This document shows positions 5,566-61,975 of a DNA stretch of 64,000 nt, piece by piece. The notes beneath the pieces were generated by a model. It was not told the DNA's origin, made no database searches, and worked only from the letters and a program-made list of their open reading frames with translations. Source of the stretch: Candidatus Magasanikiibacteriota bacterium. GTDB taxonomy: Bacteria > Patescibacteriota > Patescibacteriia > Magasanikbacterales > GWA2-37-8. Made by a program: the position numbers and the translations under genes. The stretch spans positions 13,618-77,617 of the forward strand of contig JAHFHV010000001.1 of the NCBI GenBank assembly GCA_023246725.1. The letters are read 5' to 3'. Numbering within the stretch: position 1 is the stretch's first letter; each line of letters opens with the position of its first letter.

Positions 5566-5590
5566 AGGATTTATTTATGTGATTTGATTT

Positions 5591-5710
5591 GTCATTCCGA
5601 ATCCCCCGTCACAGGGGGTGAGGAATCTCTGTCCAATCGTTGTCATTCCGACCGTAGTGGAGGAATCTCGCCAACAATCGCGAGATCCCTCGGCTGCGCT
5701 CGGGATGACA
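5591..5710. repeat. MITE-like palindromic element family 1 (GTCATYCYGA...GGATGACA), 1.5 copies
   Basis: Terminal inverted repeats gtcattccga/cgggatgaca; related copies at 13178, 16076, 23146, 25217, 27229, 45026, 49713. Confidence 0.8.
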
Positions 5711-5721: not shown

Positions 5722-6126
5722 TTATTTATTTGTAGTGGTCGCTGTACTTGTTGTGTGCTCGGCCTGTGCCGTAACTGAAGCGGCGTTTAATTTATTCATT
5801 ACATCTTTAATTTGTTCTAGGGCGGCCCCGTGGTCGGCAGCCTGTTCTTTTTGTTTGGCAAAAATATCACCCCACTCTTGTTTGGTTTTGCTCGCCAAGG
5901 CAACTTCCGGCGCTTTGTTCCACTGCAGTCCGGAAATTTGTACAGTGACTGACCATCCCCAGAGCGCGAAAATTATTACGGAAAAACTAATTACTCCAAT
6001 CCACATTAATCGGCGAGCGTGGCGTTCGCGCTCAGTTTCTTTAAAAATAGGGAGCTCTGGGGTAGCCTCTATTGGAGTCTCCGGCGCTTCTTTTTTATGG
6101 CTCATTCGTTTCTTTTTTTGAGGCAT
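5722..6126 (-). CDS. Hypothetical small membrane protein
   Basis: ORF with one predicted TM helix (MWIGVISFSVIIFALWGW); ATG at 6126 preferred over TTG at 6150, which lies in repeat. Confidence 0.45.
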   Translation of the reverse strand: MPQKKKRMSHKKEAPETPIEATPELPIFKETERERHARRLMWIGVISFSVIIFALWGWSVTVQISGLQWNKAPEVALASKTKQEWGDIFAKQKEQAADHGAALEQIKDVMNKLNAASVTAQAEHTTSTATTTNK

Positions 6127-6131
6127 ACCAC

Positions 6132-6236
6132 ACAAAATGACAAAATCCAAATGACAAATGTCAAATCAAATCCAAAATCCCAATTCTAGAATTTGATATT
6201 TGAGCTTGATTTGACGTTTGAAATTTGTCATTTGAT
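6132..6236. repeat. Inverted-repeat element family 2 (caaatgtcaaat / atttgacatttg)
   Basis: Copies at 47992, 50969, 52215 (inside radA), 57313. Confidence 0.7.
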
Positions 6237-6282
6237 ATTAAACTTTAGCTTTAATTTTTTTTACAGCACATAAAAGCTGTTT

Positions 6283-6897: not shown

Positions 6898-6990
6898 ACA
6901 AGAGTAAAAAGTTTGTAAAGTTATAAAGTTTATAAAGGAAGACAGGACAAGTAACTTTATAAACTTTGAACTTTTCGCCTTTATAAACTC
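6898..6990. repeat. Repeat family 3 (agtttgtaaagttataaagtt...)
   Basis: Near-identical block at 17405-17466. Confidence 0.6.
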
Positions 6991-8048: not shown

Positions 8049-8051
8049 GGT

Positions 8052-13067: not shown

Positions 13068-13177
13068 GAAATCCTCCTTGGTCCAAGTTGGACACTTTAC
13101 CCTACAATATTTTGGCCAGTTTGTCAAGGTTGTGCTATACTGTAAGCAGGGTTAACTCATAGCCAATCTCATCAACT

Positions 13178-13269
13178 GTCATTCTGACCCCGCACTTGCG
13201 GGGGAAGAATCTCTGTCCAATTGGTCAAATAACGACCGACAGAGATCCTTCACTGCGTTCAGGATGACA
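13178..13269. repeat. MITE family 1 copy
   Basis: gtcattctgaccc...gttcaggatgaca. Confidence 0.8.
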
Positions 13270-16061: not shown

Positions 16062-16075
16062 CACTCTACCGTTTG

Positions 16076-16186
16076 TCATCCTGAGCGTAGCGAAGGATCT
16101 CTGTCTTGTTCAATTGTTAAATTGCTGTATTGTTGGTGATTGGTAGAGAGATCCTTCAGTCGCTGCGACGCTTCTTCAGGATGACA
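16076..16186. repeat. MITE family 1 copy
   Basis: tgtcatcctgagcgtagcgaaggatctc ... cttcaggatgaca. Confidence 0.8.
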
Positions 16187-16259: not shown

Positions 16260-17411
16260 ATGATCACCTATCGCCTGGCCACCCAGCCGCCCTTGGAGCC
16301 ATCGGTCAAGTTTTATAAAATTATCGCAGTATCTTTTTTGGCCATCACGATTGTTCTTTTGGCCTTGGTCATTTTTATGACTTCTAAAAAAGCTACCATT
16401 ACTATTGTGGCTAAAAATGATACCAAGAACGTGTCTTTGGCAGTTGGGGTGGGCGCTAAAGTTACCGAGGCCACGAGTATTGGCGGCACGGTAGCTTCTC
16501 AAATTTTTCCCTGGGCCGAGGATTTTCACCCCACGGGCAACAAAATGGTTGACGCCGTGGCTACGGGGGCGGTCGTGATTTACAATAAAACCAATAGCCC
16601 CCAGCCTTTGGTTAAAACCACGCGGGTGCTTACGCCGGCCGGAATCTTATTCCGATTATCCGAAGGCGTAACGGTTCCAGCCAGCGGGCAAGTGACGGCG
16701 CGCGTGTACGCGGATCAAAAAGGCGCGGCTTATAATATCAGTCCGAGCAGGTTTACCATTCCCGGCCTGGACGCGAGCAAACAAAAAGTTATTTATGCCG
16801 AAAGTAGCGCGCCCATGAGCGGCGGCGTGGCCACACTCGGCATTTTAAGCGCCGAGGATATTAAGAGCGCGGAATTGGCTTATAAACAAAAGGCGCAAGA
16901 GGCATTTCTTAAAAATTTAACGCCCACTAATGATGCCGGGCAGGCGCAAATTGTTACCGTAGTTGATACTCACGCCAAAGCTAACCACAAAGCGGGGGAT
17001 GAAGTAACGGTTTTTACCGTGAGTGGTACGAGTACCGTTGTGGTGGTGCGCTACGCTAAAGCCGATTTGACGACGCTGGTTAATAAACAAATTACCGACA
17101 AAGTTAACGCGTCGGCCGAGCGGTTTGTAGCTACCGGCAGCAACGCTCCAGAGGTAAGCGTCGCTAGCTTTGACGCCAAGGCCGGCACGGCCTCACTTAA
17201 TGTTCACCAAAATGTTTCTGTAACTTTGGACGCGAACGTGGACGCGCTGTCGCCGGATCATTTTGCTGGTAAAAAGAAAGCCGATATTGAACGTTATATT
17301 TTAGGGCTGGACCACGTGGCTCAGGTGGACGTGAAATTCTTTCCGTCTTGGATGTTTAGCGCGCCCAGCGTGCCGGACAGGATAAAGGTGATAGTGAAAA
17401 ACGTACAGTAA
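16260..17411 (+). CDS. Hypothetical membrane-anchored exported protein
   Basis: N-terminal TM then Thr/Val/Ala-rich beta-type sequence; downstream of pilB. Confidence 0.45.
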   Translation: MITYRLATQPPLEPSVKFYKIIAVSFLAITIVLLALVIFMTSKKATITIVAKNDTKNVSLAVGVGAKVTEATSIGGTVASQIFPWAEDFHPTGNKMVDAVATGAVVIYNKTNSPQPLVKTTRVLTPAGILFRLSEGVTVPASGQVTARVYADQKGAAYNISPSRFTIPGLDASKQKVIYAESSAPMSGGVATLGILSAEDIKSAELAYKQKAQEAFLKNLTPTNDAGQAQIVTVVDTHAKANHKAGDEVTVFTVSGTSTVVVVRYAKADLTTLVNKQITDKVNASAERFVATGSNAPEVSVASFDAKAGTASLNVHQNVSVTLDANVDALSPDHFAGKKKADIERYILGLDHVAQVDVKFFPSWMFSAPSVPDRIKVIVKNVQ

Positions 17412-17466
17412 GAGTTTGTAAAGTTATCAAGTTATAAAGTTTGTAAAGTTACGACGAACAAGTTAC
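17405..17466. repeat. Repeat family 3 copy (agtttgtaaagttatcaagttataaagtttgtaaagttacgacgaac x2)
   Basis: Matches 6898-6990. Confidence 0.6.
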
Positions 17467-17476
17467 GACGAACGCT

Positions 17477-23093: not shown

Positions 23094-23145
23094 AGTGATT
23101 GTACAATTTATTAATAATAAAAATTTTAAAAAAATATATCAAATT

Positions 23146-23226
23146 GTCATTCTGAGTGAAACGAAGAATCTGTTTCGATTGGCCAAACAACAACCAACTA
23201 GATCCTTCGCTCTGCTCAGGATGACA
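23146..23226. repeat. MITE family 1 copy
   Basis: gtcattctgagtgaaacgaagaatct...ctgctcaggatgaca. Confidence 0.8.
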
Positions 23227-23230
23227 GACG

Positions 23231-25858
23231 CTATTTTTTCATAAGTAAACTCCACACAGTATCGCGCTCCAAAGGCTGGCTAGGAATTTTTCCGCCGTTG
23301 CTCGCCGGAACCATATCGCTCCCATCCTGCCAGACCGGCCTCCAACCATCCGGAAAAATAATTTGGCTATCAAATTTGCTCTCGGAGCCGGATTGACGCC
23401 CCACGACTAATTGGTATGAAGCGGCCTGTGCACTTGTCGATCGCTCGTTTTGAAAGGCGGTAAAGGGAAGTTTATAGACGAATTCAATGCGGCTGGTTGC
23501 CCCCGGCTCCGTAATTATCCAATTTCCAAAGGCTGTCTTGCCAAACTCTTCGGTAACGCGCGTGCCGGTACGCGCCTCAATGCCGATCTCGGTTTCTTTG
23601 GCAGTTAGGGCGGCGTCGGTTACGGCCCAGGGGTCGGGAACGCGAAAGAGCGTCTCGTTTGGCCAGCTAAAACCGCTGACCGAAATAAGCGCGCTGCCTT
23701 TGGGAACATATAGGCGGAGATAATCTATATTGGCAGTACCGTACAATTTTTCGCCAAAGGCACCAGTATGCTCGCGCATAATGGTGACGGTATTGGTAAT
23801 GGTGCCATTTTCTTCAACCACTGCCTGGTGGCTGATATTTTGTTTAATTTTACTATCGGATTTTTCCCCCTGGATATTGGTATTAATGGCCATGAGAAAA
23901 TCTTGGTCCGCTCGCGTTGTGGGCACAGCTCCGCTCCAGCCTAAGGCAACCAAGGCGCTCTCGGCCTCTTCGTCGGTATTATAGAGCTGAATTTCTTTTT
24001 GCTCCAGCGCGTTTTCAAGCTGGTGTAAAACTCCCAGGAGCGAGCCCAGCGGGGCTTTTTGAATAGTGTCCAAAAGATTAGGCGCCAGATCAGCCAGAAT
24101 TTGTTTGGGAGTATTGGCAGTTTTCTCCGGGCCGGTTTCAATAATTTTTTCTAAGATGGGGAGTGCGCTCTCGGCCGAGAGTGTGAGCGAACGGGAGTTA
24201 TCGGTTAAAGGGCCAAGCACACTAAGAAGCCTTTCCAACACCGTTCCATTAATCGCAATCACCCCATCCAAGGTTACGCCGCGGCTATGGCGGTAAAACC
24301 ACAGCATCTTGTCCGCGCTGGCGGGGAAGTCCGGAAACCAGTTAGCGTCCTGGAATTCCCAGCGCTTGTTGGCAAGGAGCAGAGGCGTGGGCGGTTTTAC
24401 GTACGCGTTGAGCTGTCCTTGCAAATCGTAGCTGCCGCCGGGGGGCAATTTAAAGCTTAACAGCTGGCCATCTTTTACCTCAATTACGGCAAAACTGCCC
24501 ATAAAGCCGCCAGTCGGTCGCAATTCGTGCTGGTTTTGGAAAACCAGCAGAAAGCGCCGCCGGCCAGTCTGCCCTAAAAATTCTTTCAGGGGCCCCGCCA
24601 GCTCTGTAATTACTTCCAGGTCGTGGCTGATCGCATTCACCACTTTTTTAACATTGGCAAAATCGGCCTGATGCTCTGCCGGCAGCACGCTGATATCCAC
24701 GCGCGCTAATTTTTTCTGGGCCGCCTGGTAATGAGGCAAGGTGGCTTTGACGCCAGCCAGAATTGGTTCCAAGTGTCCAAGGAGCGTAGCGCCCGGCGCT
24801 ATGTTTCCTTGGCCAAGAGACGAAAAGAGATAGGAATTTCCGAGAGCAATATCTGCGCCGGCCAGCAGTACGTTTTCTTTACTGGTAATATTGTTGCCTA
24901 CTCTGGGGAGCATCGCGGCCACGGTGGCCAAAAATCCATGCTTGGTTTGCAGCAGGCTCGCGGCTTTGTTAAGCTGCTTAAGGGCAAGGTCTGTAGTTTC
25001 TTCGGCTAAGGAAATATTACCGCCTCTTAAGGCGTCGGTGGAATTTTTTAACGAAGCAAACCCGGCTAAACTTTGCGCGGTAATTTCGTTAGTATCATCT
25101 TTCAGGCTGGTAACATAACCAAAACTGGCGCGCGGCAGAATAATAACCAAGACAATAACAGCGAGCGCCCAGCGGAGTTTAAAATTTTGTTTTGTAATGA
25201 GGCGAGAAAGCAGTGTGTCATTTCGAGTCCTATGGTCCCGCGGCGAGCGGGATCCGCGATCCTTCGGGATCAGGACAATCCCCTCGTTTTCAGAAAGAGC
25301 TCTGTAATCAGTGGGATCGCCACGCCCCGCTTGAGCGGGGCTCGCGATGACAATAGCACGCTTCACCACCTTCTCTTTTTTGTCATGCCACCACTCACCG
25401 CACGCAGTTACCATTTGTTGTAAGTGTGATATTGGTTTTAAAGAATCAAACCTACTAGGACTTGCTTGGTCTTGATCTAAATCTTGATCGACACTTTGTG
25501 CAAACAATCTTTCGGGCGCACTCGGCAGTTTATGATAATAATGGTAGAGCGGATTTTGAGAATCAACGGGAGCCGCGGCGGTAACATTTTTCCACACCTC
25601 TTTTTTATGGTGGCGCATGTCAATAACATAGGGCGAGGCGGCGGACGCGTGACTAACATGGTGCACAAAAAATTTCAGCGGCGTTCTTGAAACAGGCGCT
25701 GGCGGAGGCGTCGTTGAAGTTGGAGCGCTGGGAAGGACAACAACAGGGCAAGTGGCTTTATTGTGGCCAGCTTTTTTACAGCTGCCGCAGCGGCGCAGTT
25801 GGCGAGAGGGTGATTCTTTGGACATGAAAAACAAACAATGGGAATGGAAAATTCTCAT
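23231..25858 (-). CDS. Hypothetical large single-pass membrane protein with N-terminal CCHC zinc-knuckle
   Basis: CGSCKKAGHNKATC (C-X2-C-X4-H-X4-C), TM WALAVIVLVIIL, about 640-aa extracytoplasmic domain; alternative start 25825; possible leaderless (tataat 5 nt before ATG 25858). Confidence 0.55.
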   Translation of the reverse strand: MRIFHSHCLFFMSKESPSRQLRRCGSCKKAGHNKATCPVVVLPSAPTSTTPPPAPVSRTPLKFFVHHVSHASAASPYVIDMRHHKKEVWKNVTAAAPVDSQNPLYHYYHKLPSAPERLFAQSVDQDLDQDQASPSRFDSLKPISHLQQMVTACGEWWHDKKEKVVKRAIVIASPAQAGRGDPTDYRALSENEGIVLIPKDRGSRSPRDHRTRNDTLLSRLITKQNFKLRWALAVIVLVIILPRASFGYVTSLKDDTNEITAQSLAGFASLKNSTDALRGGNISLAEETTDLALKQLNKAASLLQTKHGFLATVAAMLPRVGNNITSKENVLLAGADIALGNSYLFSSLGQGNIAPGATLLGHLEPILAGVKATLPHYQAAQKKLARVDISVLPAEHQADFANVKKVVNAISHDLEVITELAGPLKEFLGQTGRRRFLLVFQNQHELRPTGGFMGSFAVIEVKDGQLLSFKLPPGGSYDLQGQLNAYVKPPTPLLLANKRWEFQDANWFPDFPASADKMLWFYRHSRGVTLDGVIAINGTVLERLLSVLGPLTDNSRSLTLSAESALPILEKIIETGPEKTANTPKQILADLAPNLLDTIQKAPLGSLLGVLHQLENALEQKEIQLYNTDEEAESALVALGWSGAVPTTRADQDFLMAINTNIQGEKSDSKIKQNISHQAVVEENGTITNTVTIMREHTGAFGEKLYGTANIDYLRLYVPKGSALISVSGFSWPNETLFRVPDPWAVTDAALTAKETEIGIEARTGTRVTEEFGKTAFGNWIITEPGATSRIEFVYKLPFTAFQNERSTSAQAASYQLVVGRQSGSESKFDSQIIFPDGWRPVWQDGSDMVPASNGGKIPSQPLERDTVWSLLMKK
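25217..25352. repeat. Two adjacent MITE family 1-type palindromic elements inserted in-frame in CDS 23231..25858
   Basis: gtcatttcgag...ggatcaggaca and ...gccacgccccgcttgagcggggctcgcgatgaca; the latter matches half-copy at 48035-48072; encodes linker between Zn-knuckle and TM. Confidence 0.7.
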
Positions 25859-27228: not shown

Positions 27229-27324
27229 TGTCATTCTGAGCAAAGCGAAGAATCTCTGTCCATCATTCACTTACAATAGAGCAATTGAACGAGACAGAGA
27301 TCCTTCACTGCGTTCAGGATGACA
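27229..27324. repeat. MITE family 1 copy
   Basis: gtcattctgagcaaagcgaagaatctc ... gttcaggatgaca. Confidence 0.8.
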
Positions 27325-30699: not shown

Positions 30700-31821
30700 T
30701 TATTGAATCAGGACCGGCTGTGACAGGCCGGTTTTAAATTCTTCGTAGCGGTTATCCACGTACTGCTTTAGATTGGTTTTAAAATTAGCCACGCTGAATT
30801 TTTCGGCCTGGGATTTTATGTTAGCGCTGTTCCAAGCGGTATGGTCAAAATGGAGCACAGCGTCTAACAGCGATTCCCAGGATTGCTTTTGAAAAAATAC
30901 GCCGGTTTCGCCCGGCACAACCGTTTCGGTGGCGCCGCCTTCGCCGTAGGCAATTACCGGCCGCCCGGCGGCCATGGTTTCTACCGGCGTAATCCCAAAA
31001 TCTTCTAGTTGGGGGTGGATAAAGGCTTTGGCGTGGCGCAACAGTTCACCCTTGGCTTCATCCGAAATCCGGCCGACAAATTCTATGTTGGGTTTGGCGT
31101 GTTTTTGCAGATGCTCTAGCTCTGGGCCAGTGCCAAAAATTTTTAAGGGGTACCGCAATCGATTGAAAGCCTGAACCACCATATCCAGCCGCTTGTAAGG
31201 GACAAGGCGCCCGCCGGCAACAAAATAATCTTCCACACTGGCGCTCGGAGAGAATAAATGCGTGTCAGTGGGCGGAAAAATAATATCGCTTTCGCGGCGG
31301 TAATATTTATTGATGCGGTATCGCACGGTGGCGGAATTGGCCACAAAATGGTCCACGCGGTCGGTGCTCATTTTGTCCCACAGGCGCAGACGCGAAATAA
31401 CACCAGGCAGAAGCGCTTTGACAGCGGGATTATAGGGCAAATCGGCCACGTAGGTATGCGTGTCGCTCCACAAGTAGCGCGCCGGGGTGTGGCAATAGGA
31501 AATATGGAGCGTGTTCGGACTGGTTAAGACGCCTTTGGCAAAGCCGCTGGTGGAAGAAACTACGACATCAAAGTCCGATAGATTAAAGCGTTCGGTGGCG
31601 GTGGGCATCAGTGGCAGATACCATTGAAAATGAGATTTGATAAAGGGCATTTTACTAAGCCATGATTCACGAATATTTTCGGCCGGGAAATCTTTAATTT
31701 TAGTTTTGTCGTGGAACAACAAAAAAATTGGCGCTTCTGGCCACAGTTCGCTCATGGCTTTTAAAACGCGTTCGGCGCCGCCGTCTTGGGCCAGGTAATC
31801 GTGAACTAAGGCTAACCGCAT
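30700..31821 (-). CDS. Glycosyltransferase family 4 (GT-B, group 1)
   Basis: EFGITPVETMAAGRPVIA motif. Confidence 0.75.
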   Translation of the reverse strand: MRLALVHDYLAQDGGAERVLKAMSELWPEAPIFLLFHDKTKIKDFPAENIRESWLSKMPFIKSHFQWYLPLMPTATERFNLSDFDVVVSSTSGFAKGVLTSPNTLHISYCHTPARYLWSDTHTYVADLPYNPAVKALLPGVISRLRLWDKMSTDRVDHFVANSATVRYRINKYYRRESDIIFPPTDTHLFSPSASVEDYFVAGGRLVPYKRLDMVVQAFNRLRYPLKIFGTGPELEHLQKHAKPNIEFVGRISDEAKGELLRHAKAFIHPQLEDFGITPVETMAAGRPVIAYGEGGATETVVPGETGVFFQKQSWESLLDAVLHFDHTAWNSANIKSQAEKFSVANFKTNLKQYVDNRYEEFKTGLSQPVLIQ

Positions 31822-31888
31822 ATGTATAATCCTAATTTACGAATTTTGATCCGAATCTACAAAAATCCGAATACTACCAATGACAACC
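31822..31888. repeat. Left half of duplicated intergenic sequence (family 6), matches 33781-33840
   Basis: tataatcctaat(t/c)(t/c)acgaattt...ccgaat. Confidence 0.55.
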
Positions 31889-32275
31889 TTACTCTTTTCC
31901 GGCGCCATTTAGTACACGTCTTGGGTGCAGTCGGTCTTCTCGAAAATTTACCAATATACCCAGCGCTAAATTAAGCGTGGCCAAGTATCGCCTCGTTTGG
32001 TCATAATCGTCCTTAAGCAGATATTTGGGGTATTTAATCTCTAAAATAATTTTGTTGTCAATCAAGAAATCAACTCGATGCCTGCCCGGTTTTTCTCCTT
32101 CGTGTTCACTTAGTAAATTATTTTCTCGTAAGTATTTGAGATCTCTCTCTTTCAATTTTAGTTCAATCAAATCGCAGATTTGTTTTTCACTGGAGAATTT
32201 TCCTAATTCGTTATGAACTTCAAATAAAATTCCGTTAATGATGAACGATAATTCTTTGTGAATTATGTGGGTCAT
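31889..32275 (-). CDS. GxxExxY family protein (PD-(D/E)XK-like)
   Basis: GILFEVHNELG...VDFLIDNKIILEIK...NFRED pattern typical of GxxExxY proteins. Confidence 0.6.
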   Translation of the reverse strand: MTHIIHKELSFIINGILFEVHNELGKFSSEKQICDLIELKLKERDLKYLRENNLLSEHEGEKPGRHRVDFLIDNKIILEIKYPKYLLKDDYDQTRRYLATLNLALGILVNFREDRLHPRRVLNGAGKE

Positions 32276-32342
32276 ATTTCGTTACATTCGTTATTATTCG
32301 GAAATTTGTGGATTCGGCTAAGATTTGTTGATTCGGATTACA
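32276..32342. repeat. Right half of duplicated intergenic sequence (family 6), matches 33845-33910
   Basis: ttcggctaagatttgttgattcggattacatt identical in both. Confidence 0.6.
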
Positions 32343-33770
32343 TTAAACAATGCTTCCCGTTTTTTTAACCACCACAAACGGCGTCTTAACTAGAATTATG
32401 AAGTCAAGATACAAATTCCAATTTTCTATGTAAAACGCGTCCAGTTTTATTTCTTCGGCAAAGGTTAAATGGCTACGGCCGGAAATTTGGGTCAGGCCGG
32501 TAAGGCCGGGTTTAATGGCAAACACAATGCGGTGCTCATTCTCATAGCCAGCCACTTCCCGGGGCTGGTGGGGGCGCGGGCCCACTAAACTCATGTCGCC
32601 TTTTATAACATTCCAAAATTGCGGCAGTTCATCCAAGCTCCAGCGGCGCAGGAAGCGGCCGACCGGCGTGAGGCGCGGATCATTTTTAATTTTGTAAATC
32701 GGGCCGGCCTTGCTGCTGCTGGTTTTAATTAGTTCGGCTTCGGTTTTTAAGGCGGTTTGCCCGTGGCGGCCAAATTGCGGACCGGTGCAGTACTTTTGAT
32801 ACATGGTGCGGAATTTAAGCGTAAAAAATTTCTCATTCAACTGGCCAACGCGTTCGTTTTTATAAATCACCGGGCGGCCGCTTTCTATTAAAATAATCAA
32901 CGTAATAAACAGGTTTAGAGGAATGAAAATAATAAACAGGAGCGTTCCAAAAAACATATCAAACAGGCGTTTTATTATCCGCCCCCAGCCGGTAAGACGC
33001 GTACGGCGCAGTTCAATAATGGGGATGCCGGCAATGGTGGAGACCGTCATGTTGGCGGTAATGGTGGCAAATAAATCGGCCGAATATTTAAAGGTAATGT
33101 GGTTTAGGTTGGCAAATTCAATGGCGGCCAGGGCTTCGGCTTCACTGCCTTTGGGGTCGGTAAAAATAATTTCATCGGGTTTGGTTTTGCGAATAGCCCC
33201 GGCGGATGCGTGGTTAAAATGGTTGAACGTTCCCACGATGTTATAGCCCAGACGTGGTTGACCTAAAAATGCTTCACGGATAGTTTTCGCAATCTTCTCG
33301 TTTCCGATAATCACGGTGCGGCGGAGACCGACGCCAACGCGGTAGAGCAAGGCCTTGCACCCGCGCAGGAGGAGCCGCCCCAGGCTCACCAAGGCAATTG
33401 ACAGCGCCCCACCCACCAAAACCAAAAAGCGCGAATCAAATTTGCTTAGGGTAAAAAAAACATAAATGGTAATGGCCGCAAACCCGGTGGAACAGGCCAT
33501 GACCACGCGAGTTAAATCCCGCGCCAGTTTGCGGTTAGGGTCAGTGTTATAAAGACCGGAGAGGGCAAAAATAATCAGCCAGCCAAAAGCGACCAAGGCG
33601 ACAATGGGCCAGTAGCGCTCCCAGCTTAATTTAGCGGCAAAAGAGACCGGGCGAATGGCAATTATCCACGGCGAAAAACGCAGGGCGTAGGCGGATGCTC
33701 CGGCCAAGAGGAGCATGAGGTAGTCTACCGGCAGTTGGAGAAAGGTGAAGATAAGTTCAAAGCGTTTCAT
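32343..33770 (-). CDS. Polyprenyl-phosphate hexose-1-phosphate transferase (bacterial sugar transferase, EPS/O-antigen priming enzyme)
   Basis: N-terminal TM helices, C-terminal PVIYKNERVGQ...FTLKFRTM...SLVGPRP. Confidence 0.85.
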   Translation of the reverse strand: MKRFELIFTFLQLPVDYLMLLLAGASAYALRFSPWIIAIRPVSFAAKLSWERYWPIVALVAFGWLIIFALSGLYNTDPNRKLARDLTRVVMACSTGFAAITIYVFFTLSKFDSRFLVLVGGALSIALVSLGRLLLRGCKALLYRVGVGLRRTVIIGNEKIAKTIREAFLGQPRLGYNIVGTFNHFNHASAGAIRKTKPDEIIFTDPKGSEAEALAAIEFANLNHITFKYSADLFATITANMTVSTIAGIPIIELRRTRLTGWGRIIKRLFDMFFGTLLFIIFIPLNLFITLIILIESGRPVIYKNERVGQLNEKFFTLKFRTMYQKYCTGPQFGRHGQTALKTEAELIKTSSSKAGPIYKIKNDPRLTPVGRFLRRWSLDELPQFWNVIKGDMSLVGPRPHQPREVAGYENEHRIVFAIKPGLTGLTQISGRSHLTFAEEIKLDAFYIENWNLYLDFIILVKTPFVVVKKTGSIV

Positions 33771-33774: not shown

Positions 33775-33910
33775 TACGTATAATCCTAATCCACGAATTT
33801 CAATTCGAATCTATCAATTTCCGAATCCTACGAATATTCTTGGTCGTTAAATTCGTTATTATTAGGATATTTGTAGATTCGGCTAAGATTTGTTGATTCG
33901 GATTACATTC
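33775..33910. repeat. Intact copy of family-6 intergenic sequence
   Basis: Contains both halves that flank the GxxExxY gene. Confidence 0.55.
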
Positions 33911-34853: not shown

Positions 34854-35153
34854 ATGCAAATAAAAATTTTAAAAATCAATTTACCCGACCCGGAGCGCTC
34901 CATTAAACGTTGTGGGTATGCCGCGCATGTGGACAGGAGAACGCACGAGACCAGTTACGTGCGGCGGCTGGACCGAGATTTATTTCCCCGGTTTCATTTG
35001 TATGTGGAGGAAAAAGGTGAGAATTATTCGCTGAATTTGCATTTAGACCAGCGGGCGCCAATTTACGCTGGCGTTACAGCACATTCGGGGGAATATGATG
35101 GGGTGGTGGTGGAGCGGGAGATGGAACGAATAAGAAAATTGTTGAATTGCTGA
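34854..35153 (+). CDS. Hypothetical protein
   Basis: 99-aa ORF with promoter. Confidence 0.35.
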   Translation: MQIKILKINLPDPERSIKRCGYAAHVDRRTHETSYVRRLDRDLFPRFHLYVEEKGENYSLNLHLDQRAPIYAGVTAHSGEYDGVVVEREMERIRKLLNC

Positions 35154-35224
35154 ATTGTTATATTGTTAGTGATTATTGTCCAACAATTTAGCAATGTAAC
35201 AATTTAACAATCAAGTTTACAATT

Positions 35225-35833
35225 ATGTTCACCGGCATCATCCAAAAAGTCGTAAAAATTAAAAAGTCAGAGCGTCGTGAAGATACGCTTGTTTTAACAA
35301 TCGCGACTCCTCGAGGCTGGAAGTTAAAGCTGGGGGATTCGATTGCGACCGACGGGGTGTGTTTGACGGTTACAAAAATTGGACGAGGATGGTATCAAAC
35401 TGAATTGATGGAGGAGACGCTGGAGCGCACGACGTTTGGACACCATGTCCCTGACAAAGTTAATTTGGAGCGTTCGCTTCGGCCAATTGATTTTCTTGAC
35501 GGGCATATGGTACAGGGGCATGTAGATTGTGTGGGAGAGATTGTGAAGGTTAAAGGTGAAAGGTTGAAAGTTAAAAGTACGACAGAGAGACGTTCTTTGC
35601 TGTATGCCATTCGTTTTCCAAAAAAATATAGTAAGTTGATTGTTGAAAAATGCTCAATTGCGATGGATGGGATAAGTATGACGGTGGTAGATGCTCGGCG
35701 CGATTGGTTTTCCGTGGCGCTCATTCCCTTTACACTTACTCACACGACGATTGGTGCGAAGGAGGTTGGCGATTTGGTTAATTTGGAGTTTGATGTGATT
35801 GCAAAATATGTAAAACGATTATTGGTTGATTAG
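35225..35833 (+). CDS. ribE: Riboflavin synthase alpha chain
   Basis: MFTGIIQ..., two lumazine-binding repeats (GDSIATDGVCLTV / SIAMDGISMTV). Confidence 0.88.
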   Translation: MFTGIIQKVVKIKKSERREDTLVLTIATPRGWKLKLGDSIATDGVCLTVTKIGRGWYQTELMEETLERTTFGHHVPDKVNLERSLRPIDFLDGHMVQGHVDCVGEIVKVKGERLKVKSTTERRSLLYAIRFPKKYSKLIVEKCSIAMDGISMTVVDARRDWFSVALIPFTLTHTTIGAKEVGDLVNLEFDVIAKYVKRLLVD

Positions 35834-35899
35834 TTTAATGGTTTATTGGTGACCAATCGATTAATTAACGAATAATCTAAGAAACTAATCAATTTTATT

Positions 35900-44968: not shown

Positions 44969-45025
44969 TTTTGGGGTATACTGGTTCCTTATTAAATAGT
45001 CTGCATTGCTCAATGCATTTTTACT

Positions 45026-45135
45026 GTCATCCTGAGCGTAGCGAAGGATCTCTGTCCGGTTCAATTCTCACATTGTTCTATTGCTATATTGTTAGTGATT
45101 GAGACAGAGATTCCTCCTTCGTCGTCGGAATGACA
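45026..45135. repeat. MITE family 1 copy
   Basis: gtcatcctgagcgtagcgaaggatctc ... cgtcggaatgaca. Confidence 0.8.
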
Positions 45136-45142: not shown

Positions 45143-47992
45143 ATGAAAGATCAGTTAACTATACGAGGCGCGCGCGTCCACAACCTCAAAAATCTTTCCA
45201 TTACTATCCCCAAGCACAAATTAGTCGTGCTTACGGGTTTATCCGGGTCGGGCAAATCCAGCTTAGCCTTTGACACTATTTATGTGGAAGGCCAGCGCCG
45301 GTACGCCGAATCATTGTCCAGTTACGCCCGGCAGTTTATGGAAGTGCGTGATAAGCCGGATATTGATGGGATTGAGGGATTGTCTCCCACCATCGCGATT
45401 GACCAAAAAGTATCCACCCAGAACCCGCGTTCCACCGTTGGCACGGTAACGGAAATTTATGATTATCTCCGGTTGCTGTTCGCGCGCGCGGGCGTGCAGT
45501 ATTGCCCGGAGTGCCGCGTGGCCGTGGAGGTGTACACCCCTGGGGCGATTAGCGCCAAGTCCAGGGAGCTGGCTCGCAAAACTAAAGAACTGACGATTTT
45601 TGCTCCATTGATTCGGGATGGTCGGGTTGATTCTAAAAGCCTTCTTGAAACCGTGGAAAAATCCGGCTATGAATGGGTGCGGGTTGATGGCGAGCTTTTA
45701 AAAATAAATGATTTAGCCACGTATCGCTTTGCTCCGGAGACGAATTACACAGTGGAACTTTTAATTGGCAAATTAACGGACATTAAAAAAGACGACCCGA
45801 CCAAGTTTATTGAATCTGCCCTGGAGCTTACCAACGGCCTGGTGATTGTGGCAACTGACGATACCAGTCGGCTGTTTGCCACGATTGGCCTCTGTCCGCG
45901 GTGCGGCAAAACCTTGCCCAGCCTTGATCTGCGCAGTTTTAGCTTTAACAGCCCATACGGAGCTTGCCCACGCTGTACCGGCCTGGGGGTTACCATGGAA
46001 GTAGACCCCAATTTAGTAATTCCCAATACGCGGCTAACCTTATCCGAAGGCGCCATTCAGCCCTGGACGCGCATTACCGGCAACCAAAGTTTGTATCAAA
46101 AAATGCTCTCCGCAGTGGCGGAGAGGCACGGGTTTTCCACCAGCATTCCCGTGGCCGATTTGCCGGCAAAAATTTTGGATATTATTTTGTACGGCGGGGG
46201 CGTTGAGCAGTACATGATTGAAAATAAAAAAATTAGCTTTGCCGGGGTGATTCCGGATTTAATGCAAAAGCATTTAGATACCACGTCCGATTACGTGCGC
46301 AAAGAAATTGAACAATACATGCGCGAGAAAATTTGTCCCATCTGCCAGGGAAAACGTTTGCGGCTGGAGTCGCTGGCGGTCCGGGTAGGGGATTTTACGA
46401 TTGCGGAACTGTCTAACTTAAGCGTGGCGGAATGCCGGGCGGCAGTGGAAAGGTTATCCGCTATAGGCGGAGGCGAAAGGTTTAAGGTGATTGAACCGAT
46501 TGCGAAAGAGATTGGCCCGCGCTTAAAAAATTTAGAACGAGTAGGCCTGGGGTATTTAAGTTTAAGCCGCTCCATGAATACCTTGTCGGGCGGTGAAGTT
46601 ACGCGCGTCCGCTTGGCCTCGCAATTGTCGGCCGGTCTTACGGGCGTGATTTATGTTTTGGATGAGCCGTCGGTGGGCCTGCACCCGCGCGACAATGAGC
46701 AGTTGATTGATACCTTAAAATATTTGCGCGACCTAGGCAATTCCGTTATTGTGGTGGAACACGACCCGGCCATGATGCTGGCGGCCGATTACTTAATTGA
46801 TATTGGCCCGGGCGCCGGGGTGTATGGCGGCGAAGTACTCATCGCGGGGAACTTGCGCGAATTTAAAAAAGCCGCGGCTCGCCTAGACTCGGGGCGGGCT
46901 AAAGGAAAATCTGCCAGTGGCCAGCATTCGCTGACAGCCGACTATTTATTTGGTCAAGCGGATTTTAGCGATTTGTACCCCAAAAAATCAGACGGAAAGA
47001 AGCCGCCAACGGGCAAAAGTTTGAGCATTATGGGAGCGAGCGCGTTTAATTTAAAAAATATTGATGTGGAGATTCCGCTCGGCAAGCTTGTTTCCGTCAC
47101 GGGCGTGTCTGGTTCCGGCAAGTCAACTTTAATTATAGATATTTTAGGCAAGGCATTATCCAAATATTTTTACCGCGCCAAAGACGAGCCGGGCGCGCAT
47201 AAAACCATCAAAGGGCTCTCTAACATAGACAAAGTGATTGCCATTGACCAAAGCCCCATTGGCCGCACGCCCCGTTCTAACCCCGCTACCTACACCGGTG
47301 TGTTTACACTTATTCGGGATGTGTTCGCGTCCCTTACCGAAGCCCGCATGCGCGCGTACGACGCCGGTAAATTTAGTTTTAACGTTAAAGGCGGGCGGTG
47401 CGAGGCCTGCGCCGGCGAAGGCTATGTGCGCATCCCCATGCAATTTTTGGCCGATGTGTTTGTGGAGTGTAGCGAGTGCAATGGCCTAAGGTACAATCAA
47501 GAGGCTTTGGAAATTCATTACCACAATAAGCACATTGCCGACGTGTTAAAGATGACGGTGGAAGAAGCGCGCAGTTTTTTTAGCGAGTTTCCGCCTATAG
47601 CCGACAAGCTCAACATTCTGCGCGAAGTGGGCCTGGGCTACGTGGAACTGGGCCAGCCGGCTACCACCATATCGGGCGGCGAGGCCCAGCGCATAAAATT
47701 GGCGCAAGAGTTGTCCCGCCCGTCTACCGGCAAGACACTCTACATTTTGGACGAACCAACGACCGGACTGCATTTTGAAGATACCAAACGACTCTTGCGA
47801 GTGCTTCGTCAGTTAGTCAGCAAAGGTAATTCGGTGGTGATTATTGAACATAACGTGGATGTGATTCGTTGCAGTGATTGGGTAATTGATTTAGGGCCCG
47901 AGGGCGGCAACCAAGGCGGCCTGGTGGTAGCCGAAGGCACGCCAGGTGACGTGAAGAAGAATAAGAAGAGCTGGACGGGACGGTACCTGTGA
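45143..47992 (+). CDS. uvrA: Excinuclease ABC subunit A
   Basis: Two ABC ATPase modules ([20 protein letters not shown]), zinc-finger cysteines; 949 aa. Confidence 0.93.
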
Positions 47993-48017
47993 AATATCAA
48001 ATATCAAATGTCAAAGT
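47992..48017. repeat. Repeat family 2 fragment (atatcaaatatcaaatgtcaaag)
   Basis: Matches 6132/57313. Confidence 0.55.
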
Positions 48018-48034
48018 GAGCGTTGATGGTTTGT

Positions 48035-48072
48035 GTCATTGCGAGCCCCGCTCAAGCGGGGCGTGGCAATCC
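48035..48072. repeat. Half-copy of MITE family 1 variant (gtcattgcgagccccgctcaagcggggcgtggcaatccc)
   Basis: Reverse complement matches 25310-25352. Confidence 0.65.
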
Positions 48073-48096
48073 CGTAACATTCAGAGAGAATTAAAA

Positions 48097-48514: not shown

Positions 48515-48590
48515 AACGATACATGATACACATACAACGATACCAATCGAGTTGTCTCGTTATACGTGTATCGTGTATCCTGCTTTAAGG
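48515..48590. repeat. Palindromic element family 4 (gatacacgatacacgtataacg core)
   Basis: 22-nt exact match (reverse complement) to 61886-61907; imperfect inverted arms. Confidence 0.7.
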
Positions 48591-50939: not shown

Positions 50940-50968
50940 TCTAAAATGAGGCGATGATAAACAAGTAT

Positions 50969-51018
50969 TGATTTTTTGAGCTTGATTTGTCATTTGACCT
51001 TTGGATTTTGATATTTTA
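50969..51018. repeat. Repeat family 2 copy
   Basis: tttgagcttgatttgtcatttgacctttggattttg, matches 6195-6236. Confidence 0.6.
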
Positions 51019-52377
51019 AGCCGTATGTTTAATCAATTCCTGAATATTCACAACGTCGATAATTTTTAATTTATAATTTATAATTTTCAATTTCTTTCCT
51101 CCGTTCGTAATAACTCTTTTTAATCCAACCAACTCACATTCCTTCAGTCGTTTTTCCATTTGCCCTACTGGCCGTACTTCACCACTTAAACCAATTTCGC
51201 CAAATACTACCAGGTCACTTCCGAGTACCTTGTCTTTATAGGAGCTCGCAATGGATAGCGCCACCGCCAAATCTGCGGCCGGTTCACTGGCTTCCAGGCC
51301 TCCCACCACATTCACATGCACATCATATTGTTCCAGTTTCAGTCCAGCGCGCTTTTGCAAAACCGCTATCAACACGTGCAATCGATTAATATCAAATCCA
51401 CTCGCCTTGCGCGTGGGATACCCAAACGCCGTCTTGGTTACTAGTGCCTGAATTTCCACCAAGAGCGGGCGCGTTCCTTCCAAGAGGCAGGTGAGGACAT
51501 TCCCGGGCGCGTTTTCACCGCGCTCCAGTAAAAATTGCGCGGACGGATTTTTCACTTCTTTGAGTCCTTCAGAGTGCATTGCAAAAATCCCTACTTCATC
51601 CGTGGCGCCAAAACGGTTTTTCACCGTACGCAGAATTCGGTAATCATGGTGGCGGTCGCCCTCGAGGTACAGCACTGTATCTACCACATGCTCCAAAGTT
51701 TTCGGTCCAGTAATCGTCCCATCTTTAGTTACGTGGCTCACCAGGACTACCGCGGTGCCGGTGGTTTTGGTGGCTTCGAGAAGTTTTACCGCGCTGGCGC
51801 GAATCTGGTTCACGTTCCCGGGTTCGCCTTCCACTTCCCCGGAAGAGATGGTTTGGATGGAATCGATAATAGCCAGAGCTGGTTTTGTAGTTTGAATCGT
51901 CGCAATGATCGTTTCAACATCAGTTTCGTTCCCCAGGCGCAGTGTCCCCGAAGAAATATGTAACCGGTCAGCCCGGAGTTTAATTTGCTCAATGGATTCC
52001 TCCGCCGAAAGATACAAGGTGCTGGGGATTGCCGCGGCCAACTGCAAGGCCAAGGTCGATTTTCCAATCCCCGGCTCACCACCCAGCACAATCAAACTCC
52101 CGGGCACCAGGCCCCCGCCCAGCACGCGGTCCAGCTCGCCAATATTGGTTTTAATACGCGTGAGATTTTTTCCTTCAATTTCTTGCAAACCAAACGTCTT
52201 GGCTGTGGGATAATTACTATTTGAATTTTGGTTTTTGGATTTGATTTGGAATTTGACATTTGACATTTGACATTTTTCAATCGTTCCCCATTTACCACAT
52301 TCCAAACACCGGCCCGTCCATTTAGTGAACTGGGCGTCGCAGTTGGCGCAGGCAAAAATGAGGGAGTCTTTGGGCAT
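51016..52377 (-). CDS. radA: DNA repair protein RadA/Sms, with family-2 repeat inserted in linker
   Basis: N-terminal C4 zinc finger CANC...CLEC, RecA-like Walker A GEPGIGKST, KNRFG motif, C-terminal Lon-like domain. Confidence 0.88.
   Translation of the reverse strand: MPKDSLIFACANCDAQFTKWTGRCLECGKWGTIEKCQMSNVKFQIKSKNQNSNSNYPTAKTFGLQEIEGKNLTRIKTNIGELDRVLGGGLVPGSLIVLGGEPGIGKSTLALQLAAAIPSTLYLSAEESIEQIKLRADRLHISSGTLRLGNETDVETIIATIQTTKPALAIIDSIQTISSGEVEGEPGNVNQIRASAVKLLEATKTTGTAVVLVSHVTKDGTITGPKTLEHVVDTVLYLEGDRHHDYRILRTVKNRFGATDEVGIFAMHSEGLKEVKNPSAQFLLERGENAPGNVLTCLLEGTRPLLVEIQALVTKTAFGYPTRKASGFDINRLHVLIAVLQKRAGLKLEQYDVHVNVVGGLEASEPAADLAVALSIASSYKDKVLGSDLVVFGEIGLSGEVRPVGQMEKRLKECELVGLKRVITNGGKKLKIINYKLKIIDVVNIQELIKHTA
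52215..52276. repeat. Repeat family 2 copy in-frame in radA (encodes KCQMSNVKFQIKSKNQNSNSN)
   Basis: atttgacatttgacatttgacattttt on + strand inside minus-strand ORF. Confidence 0.75.
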
Positions 52378-57331: not shown

Positions 57332-57350
57332 ATGTCAAATACCAAATGTG
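57313..57350. repeat. Repeat family 2 copy
   Basis: tatcaaatgacaaatgtcaaataccaaatg. Confidence 0.6.
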
Positions 57351-57367
57351 ATTATCGCCGTGATTTT

Positions 57368-61870: not shown

Positions 61871-61879
61871 AGATAATCA

Positions 61880-61975
61880 AAATACACGATACACGTATAA
61901 CGATACAAGCGCACGATAGATGATAGATGGAGAGCAACAGACAATCATTATGTATCGTGCTACGTGTATCGTATA
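61880..61975. repeat. Palindromic element family 4 copy upstream of clpC
   Basis: aatacacgatacacgtataacgatac ... gtatcgtgctacgtgtatcgtat. Confidence 0.7.

What the first reader, a model, noticed from the sequence alone, without database searches (positions are those of the whole stretch)
5591..5710. At least six co-resident short palindromic repeat families in 64 kb
Family 1 (GTCATYCYGA...GGATGACA; at least 9 copies/half-copies). Family 2 (caaatgtcaaat; 5). Family 3 (agtttgtaaagttat; 2). Family 4 (gatacacg; 2). Family 5 (CTCC/GGAG twin hairpins; 2). Family 6 (EPS leader; 2). Plus the island-associated hairpin (2). That is roughly one element per 3 kb, mostly intergenic and often next to terminators and promoters. 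Several family-1 copies have slightly different cores (cgaaggatctc vs cgaagaatctc vs ggaggaatctc), suggesting ongoing diversification. This density is unusual for a streamlined genome and may drive the rearrangements and in-frame insertions noted above.
Basis: seen in the sequence. Interest (0 to 1): 0.5.

Follow-up and report, generated by a model that had tools for sequence, protein, structure and literature searches.

The report
Nuclease-linked hairpin repeats in a Patescibacteria genome
The repeats are real, and the main family belongs to a known, pan-bacterial class of tagged DNA hairpins that travel with a small single-strand DNA nuclease (Ssn); they are unusually dense here and sit in-frame inside repair genes, and a second repeat type surrounds a different small nuclease gene (GxxExxY), which looks undescribed.

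Summary
The window comes from a Patescibacteria genome near Candidatus Magasanikbacteria. It carries about 28 small palindromic elements, which fill 25% of its 6.1 kb of intergenic DNA.

Family 1 and the "island hairpin" are one family: 18 arms at 9 loci. Each arm is TGTCAT, a 5-bp stem, a tandem G·A/G·A internal loop, a variable inner hairpin, the closing stem and ATCTC. Most arms form inverted doublets of 80-136 nt.

This is a TGTC-tagged member of the known "CGTC-tagged REP" superfamily (Di Nocera 2013), now called Ssn-related motifs (Chenal 2025). The exact 28-mer occurs in at least 15 phyla. In 80 metagenomic loci, arms of this type flank a ~95-aa GIY-YIG gene (60/75 upstream, 61/76 downstream). 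The published SRM search pattern misses the whole family, and no Ssn gene lies in the 76 kb available.

Elements sit in-frame in recG, a DUF4012 gene, femAB and radA.

Families 2-4 and 6 are different: AT-rich palindromes built from 7-8-nt periodic arrays. Family 6 is a GxxExxY (PDDEXK_3) nuclease gene in the loop of such a palindrome, with a gene-less copy 1.5 kb away. Eleven GxxExxY loci show short inverted motifs abutting the ORF, seven of them clearly above controls. I found no paper describing this.

The parts
5590..5710 (.). Family-1 cluster between the 134-aa gene and the gyrA start: a solitary arm (5591-5626, +) followed by an inverted doublet (5642-5666 + and 5685-5709 -).
   Evidence: (ssDNA fold z -3.9)
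13177..13269 (.). Family-1 doublet in a divergent intergenic region. The left arm has an ATTCT/AGAAT stem with an inner CCCCGC-ACTT-GCGGGG hairpin; the right arm has ATCCT/AGGAT.
   Evidence: (z -5.4)
16074..16186 (.). Family-1 doublet after the pilB-like ATPase gene. Its spacer carries an AATTGTT periodic array shared with 45063-45100 and 35137-35174.
   Evidence: D3, D9; z -5.9
23145..23226 (.). Family-1 doublet between two minus-strand genes. Its spacer is related to that of the doublet at 13178.
25216..25352 (-). Family-1-type doublet (TGC/GCA and CGC/GCG stem subtype) inside the DUF4012 ORF. GTCAT..ATGAC is 135 nt, or 45 codons, lying in the hypervariable linker before the transmembrane helix.
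   Evidence: (I6)
27229..27324 (.). Family-1 doublet between co-directional plus-strand genes.
45025..45135 (.). Family-1 doublet that ends 8 nt before the uvrA start codon.
   Evidence: (z -4.7)
48034..48073 (+). Solitary family-1-type arm (TGC/GCA stem subtype) after the uvrA stop codon and upstream of a terminator-like hairpin.
   Evidence: (I6)
49712..49799 (+). Family-1 doublet inserted in-frame in recG (87 nt, 29 codons, peptide VILNGAQRSEESLSQSINGERSFATLRMT). It lies in a loop that several homologs lack.
50011..50069 (+). Family 5: twin CTCC/GGAG hairpins forming a second in-frame insert in recG (peptide ..SSAEERGTVTPSPLQRRGQGEV..).
31821..32344 (-). Family 6, loaded copy: array A (31821-31881), the GxxExxY/PDDEXK_3 nuclease ORF (31889-32275, minus strand) and array B (32279-32344). 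A and B are inverted arrays of CCGAATC-type units.
   Evidence: (D10, D12, I18)
33775..33909 (.). Family 6, gene-less copy: A' (80% identical to A), the 8-nt loop ATTCTTGG, and B' (94% identical to B). It lies directly upstream of the sugar-transferase gene start.
   Evidence: (z -2.3)
6124..6245 (.). Family 2: long imperfect palindrome of AAATGAC/ATTTGAC heptamer arrays, upstream of the 134-aa gene.
   Evidence: I4; z -4.8
47989..48015 (+). Family-2 heptamer array overlapping and following the uvrA stop codon.
   Evidence: (D5)
50964..51027 (.). Family-2 array between the convergent recG and radA genes.
   Evidence: (I2, D6)
52220..52276 (-). Family-2 array read in-frame in the radA linker after the zinc ribbon (peptide KCQMSNVKFQIKSKNQNSNSN).
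   Evidence: (I5)
57313..57353 (.). Family-2 array immediately upstream of the start codon of the minus-strand gene 56075-57307.
   Evidence: (D5, I9)
6907..6965 (.). Family 3: palindrome of AAAGTTTRT units upstream of the metallo-hydrolase gene.
   Evidence: D11; z -3.3
17408..17473 (+). Family 3: second locus, an array after the stop codon of gene 16260-17411.
   Evidence: (D11, D20)
48552..48585 (.). Family 4: TGTATCG array upstream of the rplS (L19) gene.
   Evidence: (I13)
61875..61975 (.). Family 4: palindrome of ATACACG/CGTGTAT arrays in the divergent region between the clpB-like gene and the HAD hydrolase gene.
   Evidence: I13; z -4.6
35137..35214 (.).
   Evidence: D9; z -3.5
35819..35892 (.). 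A further array palindrome (TTGATTAGTTT..AAACTAATCAA), abutting the ribH start codon.
   Evidence: D4; z -2.3

Best explanation
Family 1, including the 'island hairpin', is a population of TGTC-tagged palindromic repeats. It belongs to the superfamily first described as CGTC-tagged REPs and later renamed Ssn-related motifs (SRM).

Each arm is a single-strand DNA hairpin. It has an unpaired 5' tag (T)GTC, a stem that begins AT, a tandem G·A/G·A internal loop, a variable inner hairpin and a short 3' tail (CTC). Arms are mostly arranged as inverted doublets with the tags facing outward.

Shown here:
- the anatomy of the arms;
- compensatory stem variation within each arm;
- copying of whole doublets within this genome;
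- the exact arm in at least 15 phyla;
- tight two-sided flanking of a ~95-aa single-domain GIY-YIG gene by arms of exactly this type in other genomes.

Inferred from Chenal et al. 2025:
- the cognate GIY-YIG protein binds the sense-strand hairpin when DNA is single-stranded and cuts just 5' of it;
- arm-gene-arm is the autonomous unit and the short doublets are its gene-less derivatives;
- the system modulates incoming or replicating ssDNA.

Elements that land in tolerant protein loops and keep the reading frame persist as in-frame inserts.

Families 2-4 and 6 are a separate kind, AT-rich palindromes made of periodic arrays. At least family 6 is the boundary of a GxxExxY nuclease gene cassette.
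For: Anatomy and excess over chance.

Stem covariation: there are 6 complementary triplet variants in the window. 17 of 33 tag-plus-tail candidates are fully complementary, against 1-4% with control tags. Arms within one doublet often carry different variants, yet each arm stays self-complementary. The conserved unit is therefore the single arm.

ssDNA folds: z from -2.6 to -5.9.

Those loci hold 87 doublets with a median length of 96 nt.

Partner gene: the only recurrent small ORF next to arms is a GIY-YIG gene. In 80 metagenomic loci of that protein, an arm lies within 250 nt upstream in 60/75, downstream in 61/76, and on both sides in 48/71. Arm density is 5.9 per kb near the gene and 0.36 per kb further away. 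An HMM built only from those arms recovers 13 window arms at E<0.05.

The GIY-YIG proteins are 67-77% identical across phyla.

Doublets share spacers in two groups, so whole units were copied.

Prior art: PMC3733652 describes the TGTC variant of the tag, the AT start of the stem, tails, dimers, RPE-4/-6 and copies inside repair genes. PMC11893778 describes Ssn as an ssDNA-specific nuclease that cuts upstream of the hairpin.
Against: No GIY-YIG or Ssn gene lies in the window or in the 12 kb of flanking contigs. Whether this genome has the enzyme is unknown.

The published SRM search pattern finds 0 of 18 window arms and 1 of 120 Ssn-flanking arms.

Membership of the partner protein in cd10448 could not be tested.

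Mobilisation by Ssn has never been demonstrated, even in Neisseria. No target-site duplication was seen. The lengths of the two in-ORF copies (86 and 135 nt between tags) do not define one common inserted unit.

The small GIY-YIG gene next to recG in the relative L215 matches only the catalytic core of the Ssn-like profile.
Confidence: 0.78

Rival explanations
1. Family 1 is a REPIN population. The inverted REP doublets would be mobilised by a RAYT, a Y1 (HUH) transposase of the IS200/IS605 type.
For: The architecture is the same: two hairpin-forming repeats in inverted orientation separated by a short spacer, present in many copies and mostly intergenic.
Against: The tag is TGTC, not GTAG. 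No recurrent transposase-like ORF lies next to arms in 120 + 80 loci; the recurrent neighbour is a GIY-YIG gene. Di Nocera 2013 found no tyrosine transposase flanked by CGTC repeats. REPIN-RAYT systems are lineage-specific, whereas this arm is identical across phyla.
Confidence: 0.04
2. Family 1 elements are classical MITEs, internal-deletion derivatives of a DDE-transposase insertion sequence recognised through its terminal inverted repeats.
For: The elements have ~32-nt terminal inverted repeats, are 80-136 nt long, and whole units have been copied within the genome.
Against: There is no target-site duplication at 7 doublets. No IS or transposase with these ends occurs in any locus. Each arm is itself a conserved hairpin with compensatory changes, which transposase-binding inverted repeats do not need.
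Confidence: 0.04
3. The repeats are host-maintained structural or regulatory hairpins, such as mRNA stabilisers, attenuators or terminators, or protein-binding sites. They would have no current mobility and no nuclease partner in this genome.
For: Most copies lie between co-directional genes and would be co-transcribed. One ends 8 nt before the uvrA start codon, and arrays abut many start codons. No nuclease gene was found in 76 kb. REPs are known to take on such roles (PMC3733652 abstract).
Against: This does not explain in-frame copies inside five ORFs. It does not explain identity of the arm across at least 15 phyla, the two-sided association with a GIY-YIG gene, or different elements at the same recG site in relatives.
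Confidence: 0.12

Closest known systems
Ssn-related motifs (SRM/NTS) with the SsnA GIY-YIG ssDNA nuclease (Chenal et al. 2025, PMC11893778)
   Same: Both have a GTCAT-type oriented tag next to a 20-50-nt hairpin and an ATC-type tail. Both occur in hundreds-per-genome densities and flank a ~94-aa single-domain GIY-YIG gene on both sides. Both are spread across phyla.
   Different: The stem is interrupted by a tandem G·A/G·A loop and carries a variable inner hairpin. The published search pattern therefore misses the family. The host is a Patescibacterium. About a quarter of the loci lie inside ORFs (3 of 12: nine in the window, two in L124, one in L127), against 2% reported for N. meningitidis. 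No enzyme gene was seen in the available 76 kb.
CGTC-tagged REP superfamily, including dRS3 and Rickettsia RPE-4/RPE-6 (Di Nocera et al. 2013, PMC3733652)
   Same: The TGTC variant of the tag, AT as the first two stem positions, a short unpaired tail, inverted dimers, and copies inside replication and repair genes read in-frame (recG, radA and topA here).
   Different: The described families have 8-9-bp uninterrupted stems and 4-5-nt loops, and were found in 5 phyla, mainly Alphaproteobacteria. Here the arms are 24-36+ nt with an internal loop, and the same arm occurs in at least 15 phyla.
REPIN-RAYT systems
   Same: Inverted doublets of hairpin repeats, with a single-copy nuclease-type gene bracketed by the same repeats as the presumed autonomous form.
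   Different: The tag differs (GTAG) and the enzyme differs (Y1 HUH transposase). REPIN-RAYT systems are inherited vertically within lineages rather than shared across phyla.
Free-standing homing-endonuclease genes and nuclease cassettes (comparison for the GxxExxY element only)
   Same: A small nuclease ORF inserted between co-oriented housekeeping genes at different sites in different genomes.
   Different: The ORF is bracketed by inverted arrays of 7-8-nt periodic units, and a gene-less palindrome copy exists. No cleavage or homing data exist. PDDEXK_3 is listed as 'function unknown'.

Membership tests
Ssn-related motif (SRM) / NTS-Ssn system | An oriented, unpaired 5' tag (C/T)GTC followed by AT at the base of the stem | tested here: met
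   All 18 arms start TGTCAT.
Ssn-related motif (SRM) / NTS-Ssn system | A 20-50-nt imperfect palindrome able to form an ssDNA hairpin | tested here: met
   Arms are 24-36 nt or longer. There are 6 compensatory stem variants, and the folds beat shuffles.
Ssn-related motif (SRM) / NTS-Ssn system | A match to the published degenerate search sequence HGTCWYN(0-2)YYVSBRHN(0-5)WNVSBRGN(0-2)RNCYNB | tested here: not met
   There are 0 hits in the window. The pattern does match the NTS consensus, but it matches none of the arm types tested and only 1 of 120 arms next to Ssn-like genes.
Ssn-related motif (SRM) / NTS-Ssn system | The repeats flank a ~94-aa single-domain GIY-YIG gene on one or both sides | tested here: met
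   Met for this arm type in other genomes: 60/75 upstream, 61/76 downstream, 48/71 on both sides. Examples are L042, L063, L095, L115 and L285. Not seen in the window itself.
Ssn-related motif (SRM) / NTS-Ssn system | An Ssn (cd10448) gene is present in the same genome | not testable with these tools
   Only 64 kb plus 12 kb of the genome is available, and it holds no GIY-YIG gene. CDD models are not available. A related MAG has a small GIY-YIG gene next to recG that matches only the catalytic core.
Ssn-related motif (SRM) / NTS-Ssn system | Sense-strand ssDNA is bound and cut just upstream of the hairpin by the cognate enzyme | not testable with these tools
   This needs biochemistry.
CGTC-tagged REP superfamily (Di Nocera 2013) | A CGTC/TGTC tag, a stem starting with AT, a short unpaired tail, and inverted dimers | tested here: met
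   compared. The tail here is CTC rather than the consensus CCA.
CGTC-tagged REP superfamily (Di Nocera 2013) | An 8-9-bp continuous stem with a 4-5-nt loop (families CGTC-1 to -4) | tested here: not met
   Here the stem is 5 bp, followed by a tandem GA/GA loop and an inner stem of 2-7 bp with a 3-6-nt loop.
REPIN-RAYT | A GTAG tag and a RAYT gene flanked by the repeats | tested here: not met
   The tag is TGTC. No transposase-like family recurs next to arms.
MITE (derived from a DDE insertion sequence) | Terminal inverted repeats, a target-site duplication and a parent IS | tested here: not met
   Inverted repeats are present. No duplication is seen at 7 doublets, and no parent IS was found.
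Rickettsia palindromic elements (RPE) | In-frame insertion into functional ORFs | tested here: met
   Copies in recG, the DUF4012 gene, femAB, and Mur-ligase/folC and topA in a relative all read through without stop codons. Sequence similarity to RPE consensus sequences was not tested.
GxxExxY / PDDEXK_3 protein family (TIGR04256, PF13366) | A profile match above the curated cut-off | tested here: met
   Window 31889-32275: PF13366 at 72 bits (cut-off 22) and TIGR04256 at 68 bits (cut-off 35). L124 12889-13314: TIGR04256 at 67 bits.

The most novel reading that the evidence does not exclude
GxxExxY (PDDEXK_3) small nuclease genes would be the cores of a second, undescribed class of hairpin-bounded selfish cassettes.

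The ORF sits in the loop of a long AT-rich palindrome whose arms are arrays of 7-8-nt units (CCGAATC, CCTAATCTAC, GCGAATA, ACAGATT and others). The cassette inserts co-oriented between housekeeping genes and decays to gene-less palindromes. Family 6 is such a pair. Families 2-4 and the other array palindromes of this window could be orphans of related cassettes.

On this reading, small Patescibacteria genomes would host two parallel partnerships between a nuclease and a hairpin: Ssn with tagged hairpins, and GxxExxY with array palindromes.
Probability: 0.4. Interest if true: 0.7.

Novelty: new variant of a known kind. Interest (0 to 1): 0.5.

Why it matters
Three things follow for family 1.
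- It adds a large, pan-bacterial class of Ssn-type hairpins that the only published search pattern cannot see. Surveys based on that pattern therefore undercount these systems.
- It extends them to Patescibacteria (CPR), whose genomes are tiny and which are thought to depend on DNA uptake. Ssn modulates that process in Neisseria.
- It shows that in these organisms the elements are tolerated inside core replication and repair proteins, as RPEs are in Rickettsia.

The partner nucleases, 67-77% identical across phyla and with a well-defined hairpin, are candidates for new site-specific ssDNA cutters.

If the GxxExxY lead is confirmed, it would give a first functional context to a widespread 'function unknown' nuclease family. 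It would also explain many AT-rich intergenic palindromes.

Tried and rejected
- A literature search with 11-mers of the arm returned only chance matches such as primers.
- Rfam at gathering thresholds found only RNase P RNA and tRNA-Leu. No known RNA family covers the repeats.
- I suspected a repeat insertion in the 563-nt RNase P RNA. The alignment shows ordinary helix expansions without a GTCAT tag, so I rejected that idea.
- The published SRM pattern gave 0 hits.
- A search for Ssn/GIY-YIG in the window and its flanks found nothing.
- A search for a target-site duplication or a common inserted unit found no duplication. The in-ORF lengths of 86 and 135 nt are not informative.
- The supplementary tables of the Ssn paper are not held, so I could not check for Patescibacteria or this arm type in them.
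- A viral-contig scan for GxxExxY relatives found none.
- A search for gene-less copies of the L124 GxxExxY arrays in the window found none.
- NCBIfam has no model for the Ssn-like proteins. The only solved relative is 1ZG2 (UPF0213), a weak match.
- Strain-level presence/absence could not be tested. All matching contigs are the same strain at 99.9-100% identity, and the one 97% contig covers no element.

Full report
**Source and setting.** The window is about 48% GC and 90% coding. Its genes include gyrA, ftsH, thrS, miaA, uvrA, recG, radA, a clpB-like gene, RNase J, a pilB-like ATPase and a DUF4012 protein. The best named RecG relatives are 58-65% identical and come from Candidatus Magasanikbacteria or 'Patescibacteria group' MAGs. 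Identical DNA occurs in two ENA metagenome assemblies and in Logan assemblies, so the repeats are not an assembly artefact.

**Check of the observation.** At 5591-5710 there are three copies of one motif. GTCATYCYGA occurs 15 times in the window against 0.31 expected. Repeat finding, a tag-plus-stem scan and an independent HMM agree on 18 arms at 9 loci. All tested palindromes fold better than shuffled sequence as ssDNA, with z from -2.3 to -5.9. About 28 elements together fill 25% of the 6.1 kb of intergenic DNA. More arms lie on contigs of the same strain beyond both window ends and in a related MAG.

**Anatomy of family 1.** Each arm reads TGTCAT-YSY-GA-[variable]-GA-RSR-AT-CTC. The first five stem pairs begin AT. 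They are followed by a tandem G·A/G·A mismatch and then an inner stem of 2-7 bp with a 3-6-nt loop. The window holds six stem variants (CCT/AGG, TCT/AGA, TCC/GGA, TGC/GCA, CGC/GCG, CCC/GGG), and each is matched by its complement. Of 33 tag-plus-tail candidates, 17 are fully complementary, against 1-4% with control tags.

The two arms of a doublet often carry different variants, yet each remains self-complementary. What is conserved is therefore the single-arm hairpin, not the long arm-to-arm hairpin. The 'island hairpin' is the TGC/GCA and CGC/GCG subtype of the same design. Doublets fall into two spacer groups, {13178, 23146} and {16075, 45026, 27230 reversed}. Whole units have thus been copied in this lineage. 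No target-site duplication is visible.

**Distribution and partner gene.** These come from at least 15 phyla, including four Saccharibacteria MAGs, isolates of Pedobacter and Calothrix PCC 7716. From the specified bases and the size of the collection I estimate a chance expectation far below one hit. Those loci hold 363 arms and 87 inverted doublets with a median length of 96 nt, the same architecture as here.

Clustering all ORFs of those loci gave one recurrent small neighbour, a ~95-aa single-domain GIY-YIG protein sitting between arms. Its homologs are 67-77% identical in Chloroflexia, Dehalococcoidales, Planctomycetota, Acidobacteria, Deltaproteobacteria, Cyanobacteria, Verrucomicrobiae and Izemoplasmatales. 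In 80 metagenomic loci encoding it, a tagged arm lies within 250 nt upstream in 60/75, downstream in 61/76, and on both sides in 48/71. Arm density is 5.9 per kb next to the gene and 0.36 per kb further away. The arms there are of the family-1 type, TGTCATYCTGAG...CGAAGRATCTC. The exact arm also occurs on 72 predicted viral contigs, one of which has an arm-gene-arm unit.

**What is already known.** Di Nocera et al. 2013 (PMC3733652) defined 'CGTC-tagged' palindromic repeats. The tag is often TGTC, the stems start with AT, there are short tails, and most copies form inverted dimers. The class includes Neisseria dRS3 and Rickettsia RPE-4/-6. Copies occur inside replication and repair genes, and no dedicated transposase was found. 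Chenal et al. 2025 (PMC11893778) showed that such repeats (NTS, generalised as Ssn-related motifs) flank ssnA. This gene encodes a 94-aa GIY-YIG protein that binds the sense-strand hairpin only as ssDNA and cuts just upstream of it. It modulates natural transformation in N. meningitidis, and the NTS-ssnA-NTS arrangement resembles an insertion sequence.

Family 1 fits this system in its tag, hairpin, tail, dimer form, partner gene and in-gene copies. It differs in its interrupted stem. The published search pattern matches the NTS consensus but none of the 18 window arms, and only 1 of 120 arms next to the Ssn-like genes. I therefore class it as a new variant of a known kind.

**What is not shown.** No GIY-YIG gene lies in the 76 kb available for this genome. 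A related Magasanikbacteria MAG has an 88-aa GIY-YIG gene next to recG, but it matches only the catalytic core of the Ssn-like profile. Extrapolating 18 arms per 64 kb to an assumed genome of about 1 Mb gives about 280 arms. In the 2025 study, 81% of genomes with more than 200 SRMs had an Ssn homolog. An Ssn gene elsewhere in this genome is therefore likely but unproven. That Ssn copies the repeats has not been shown anywhere.

**In-frame insertions.** The doublet at 49713-49799 adds 29 codons to a loop of RecG helicase domain 1 that several homologs lack. Other homologs carry different GTCAT...ATGAC-type inserts at the same site (peptides VIP...L.MT), and one retains only the right arm. The window's right arm there matches the pan-bacterial 28-mer pattern exactly, although the RecG proteins are only about 65% identical. 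This argues for recent insertion or replacement rather than an old relic.

A 135-nt doublet lies in the hypervariable N-terminal linker of the DUF4012 protein. Another lies in femAB just outside the window, and further copies lie in the Mur-ligase/folC and topA genes of the relative. All are open, and they use three different reading frames of the arm. RecG carries a second insert, the family-5 twin hairpins. The RadA linker contains a family-2 array read in-frame. About a quarter of family-1 loci in this genome are intragenic, against 2% reported for NTS in N. meningitidis.

**The other families.** Families 2, 3, 4 and 6, plus at least two unlisted loci, are arrays of degenerate 7-8-nt units, with 11-nt units at two gene starts. 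Many form long AT-rich imperfect palindromes, and they abut start or stop codons.

Family 6 turned out to be informative. Arrays A (31821-31881) and B (32279-32344) are inverted relative to each other. They bracket a 128-aa ORF that is a GxxExxY/PDDEXK_3 nuclease (PF13366 at 6e-20, TIGR04256 at 7e-19). The copy at 33775-33909 is A' plus B' (80% and 94% identical) with sharp outer borders. Its 8-nt loop, ATTCTTGG, stands where the other copy has 397 nt made of the ORF plus 10 nt. Among 50 genes of the window, this ORF has the highest inverted-repeat score between its flanks: 29, against a background median of 8 and maximum of 16 once its neighbour is excluded.

A second, 30%-identical GxxExxY gene of the same strain lies between pheS and pheT. 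It is flanked by inverted 18-mers of a different unit. Nine further independent loci came from Magasanikbacteria, Kuenenbacteria, Uhrbacteria, unnamed assemblies and one contig of unknown taxon. All show short inverted motifs directly abutting the ORF. The inverted-repeat score is 23-32, against shuffle maxima of 14-19, in seven of the ten loci scored. It is no better than the shuffle maximum in L217, L221 and L222, and L170 was judged by eye only. Of the ten loci with called neighbours, nine have the ORF co-oriented with both flanking genes; the exception is L297, whose upstream neighbour is on the opposite strand. The flanking pairs include murC/murB, der/pth and fba/pfkB.

The literature held here lists PDDEXK_3 as 'function unknown' and has no paper on such cassettes. 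This is a lead from 11 loci, not a survey. Whether families 2-4 are orphans of related cassettes is untested.

**Verdict.** The main family is a recognisable but previously unsearchable variant of the CGTC-REP/Ssn-motif system, present at high density in a Patescibacterium and tolerated inside core proteins. The array palindromes are a separate kind, and one of them is tied to a GxxExxY nuclease gene.

Noticed in passing
window 36343-36905: The RNase P RNA (bacterial class A, 134 bits) is 563 nt against a 367-position model. It has large helix expansions, for example the 36507-36582 hairpin in the P12 region and inserts near the 3' end. None carries the GTCAT tag.
   Followed up: partly
L124 12847-13332 (same strain, about 6 kb beyond window position 64000): A second GxxExxY/PDDEXK_3 gene (12889-13314) lies between pheS and pheT. 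It is flanked by the inverted 18-mers ACAGATTGTGARACGGAT, and no other copy of these arrays occurs in the window.
   Followed up: yes
L215 5817-6083 (Magasanikbacteria MAG GCA_009694865.1): An 88-aa single-domain GIY-YIG gene lies directly upstream of recG in a relative, followed by several GC-rich hairpins of a different kind. It matches only the catalytic core of the Ssn-like profile (33% identity).
   Followed up: partly
window 9687-9727 and 25956-25993: Two unrelated genes, ftsH and the gene at 25994, have near-identical leaders of 11-nt periodic ATATTAA units running straight into the ATG. No Shine-Dalgarno sequence is evident. Several other genes also start right after AT-rich arrays.
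   Followed up: no
window 16104-16141, 45063-45100, 35137-35174: The same AATTGTT-type array occurs inside the spacers of two family-1 doublets and as one half of a free-standing palindrome. This suggests composite or nested elements.
   Followed up: partly
window 7749-8336, 29980-30529, 62867-63477: Three small putative toxin-antitoxin pairs: RelB/YafQ-like, RelB/ParD-like plus an unknown partner, and Gp49-like plus an HTH protein.
   Followed up: no
window about 48000-52000: Cumulative GC skew rises steadily up to about 48 kb and then flattens. Beyond 51 kb the genes up to about 62 kb are on the minus strand, and recG and radA converge here. This may be a replication terminus region.
   Followed up: no
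window 2145-2285, 51094, 53550-53690: Independent metagenome contigs of the same strain end or overlap by exactly 141 nt (the k-mer size) at these points. One break coincides with the family-2 array after recG, so the repeats probably fragment assemblies of this genome.
   Followed up: no
L285 10730-11229 (IMG/VR contig) and 71 other viral-contig stretches: The exact family-1 arm occurs on 72 predicted viral contigs, and one of them carries a complete arm-GIY-YIG-arm unit. Phages or prophages may be a vehicle for spread between phyla.
   Followed up: partly
window 166-188 and 46106-46125: Further CTCC/GGAG-type perfect hairpins (TCCCTCCCCTGTTAGGGGAGGGA and CTCTCCGCAGTGGCGGAGAG) resemble the family-5 hairpins in recG. 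The second lies inside uvrA.
   Followed up: no
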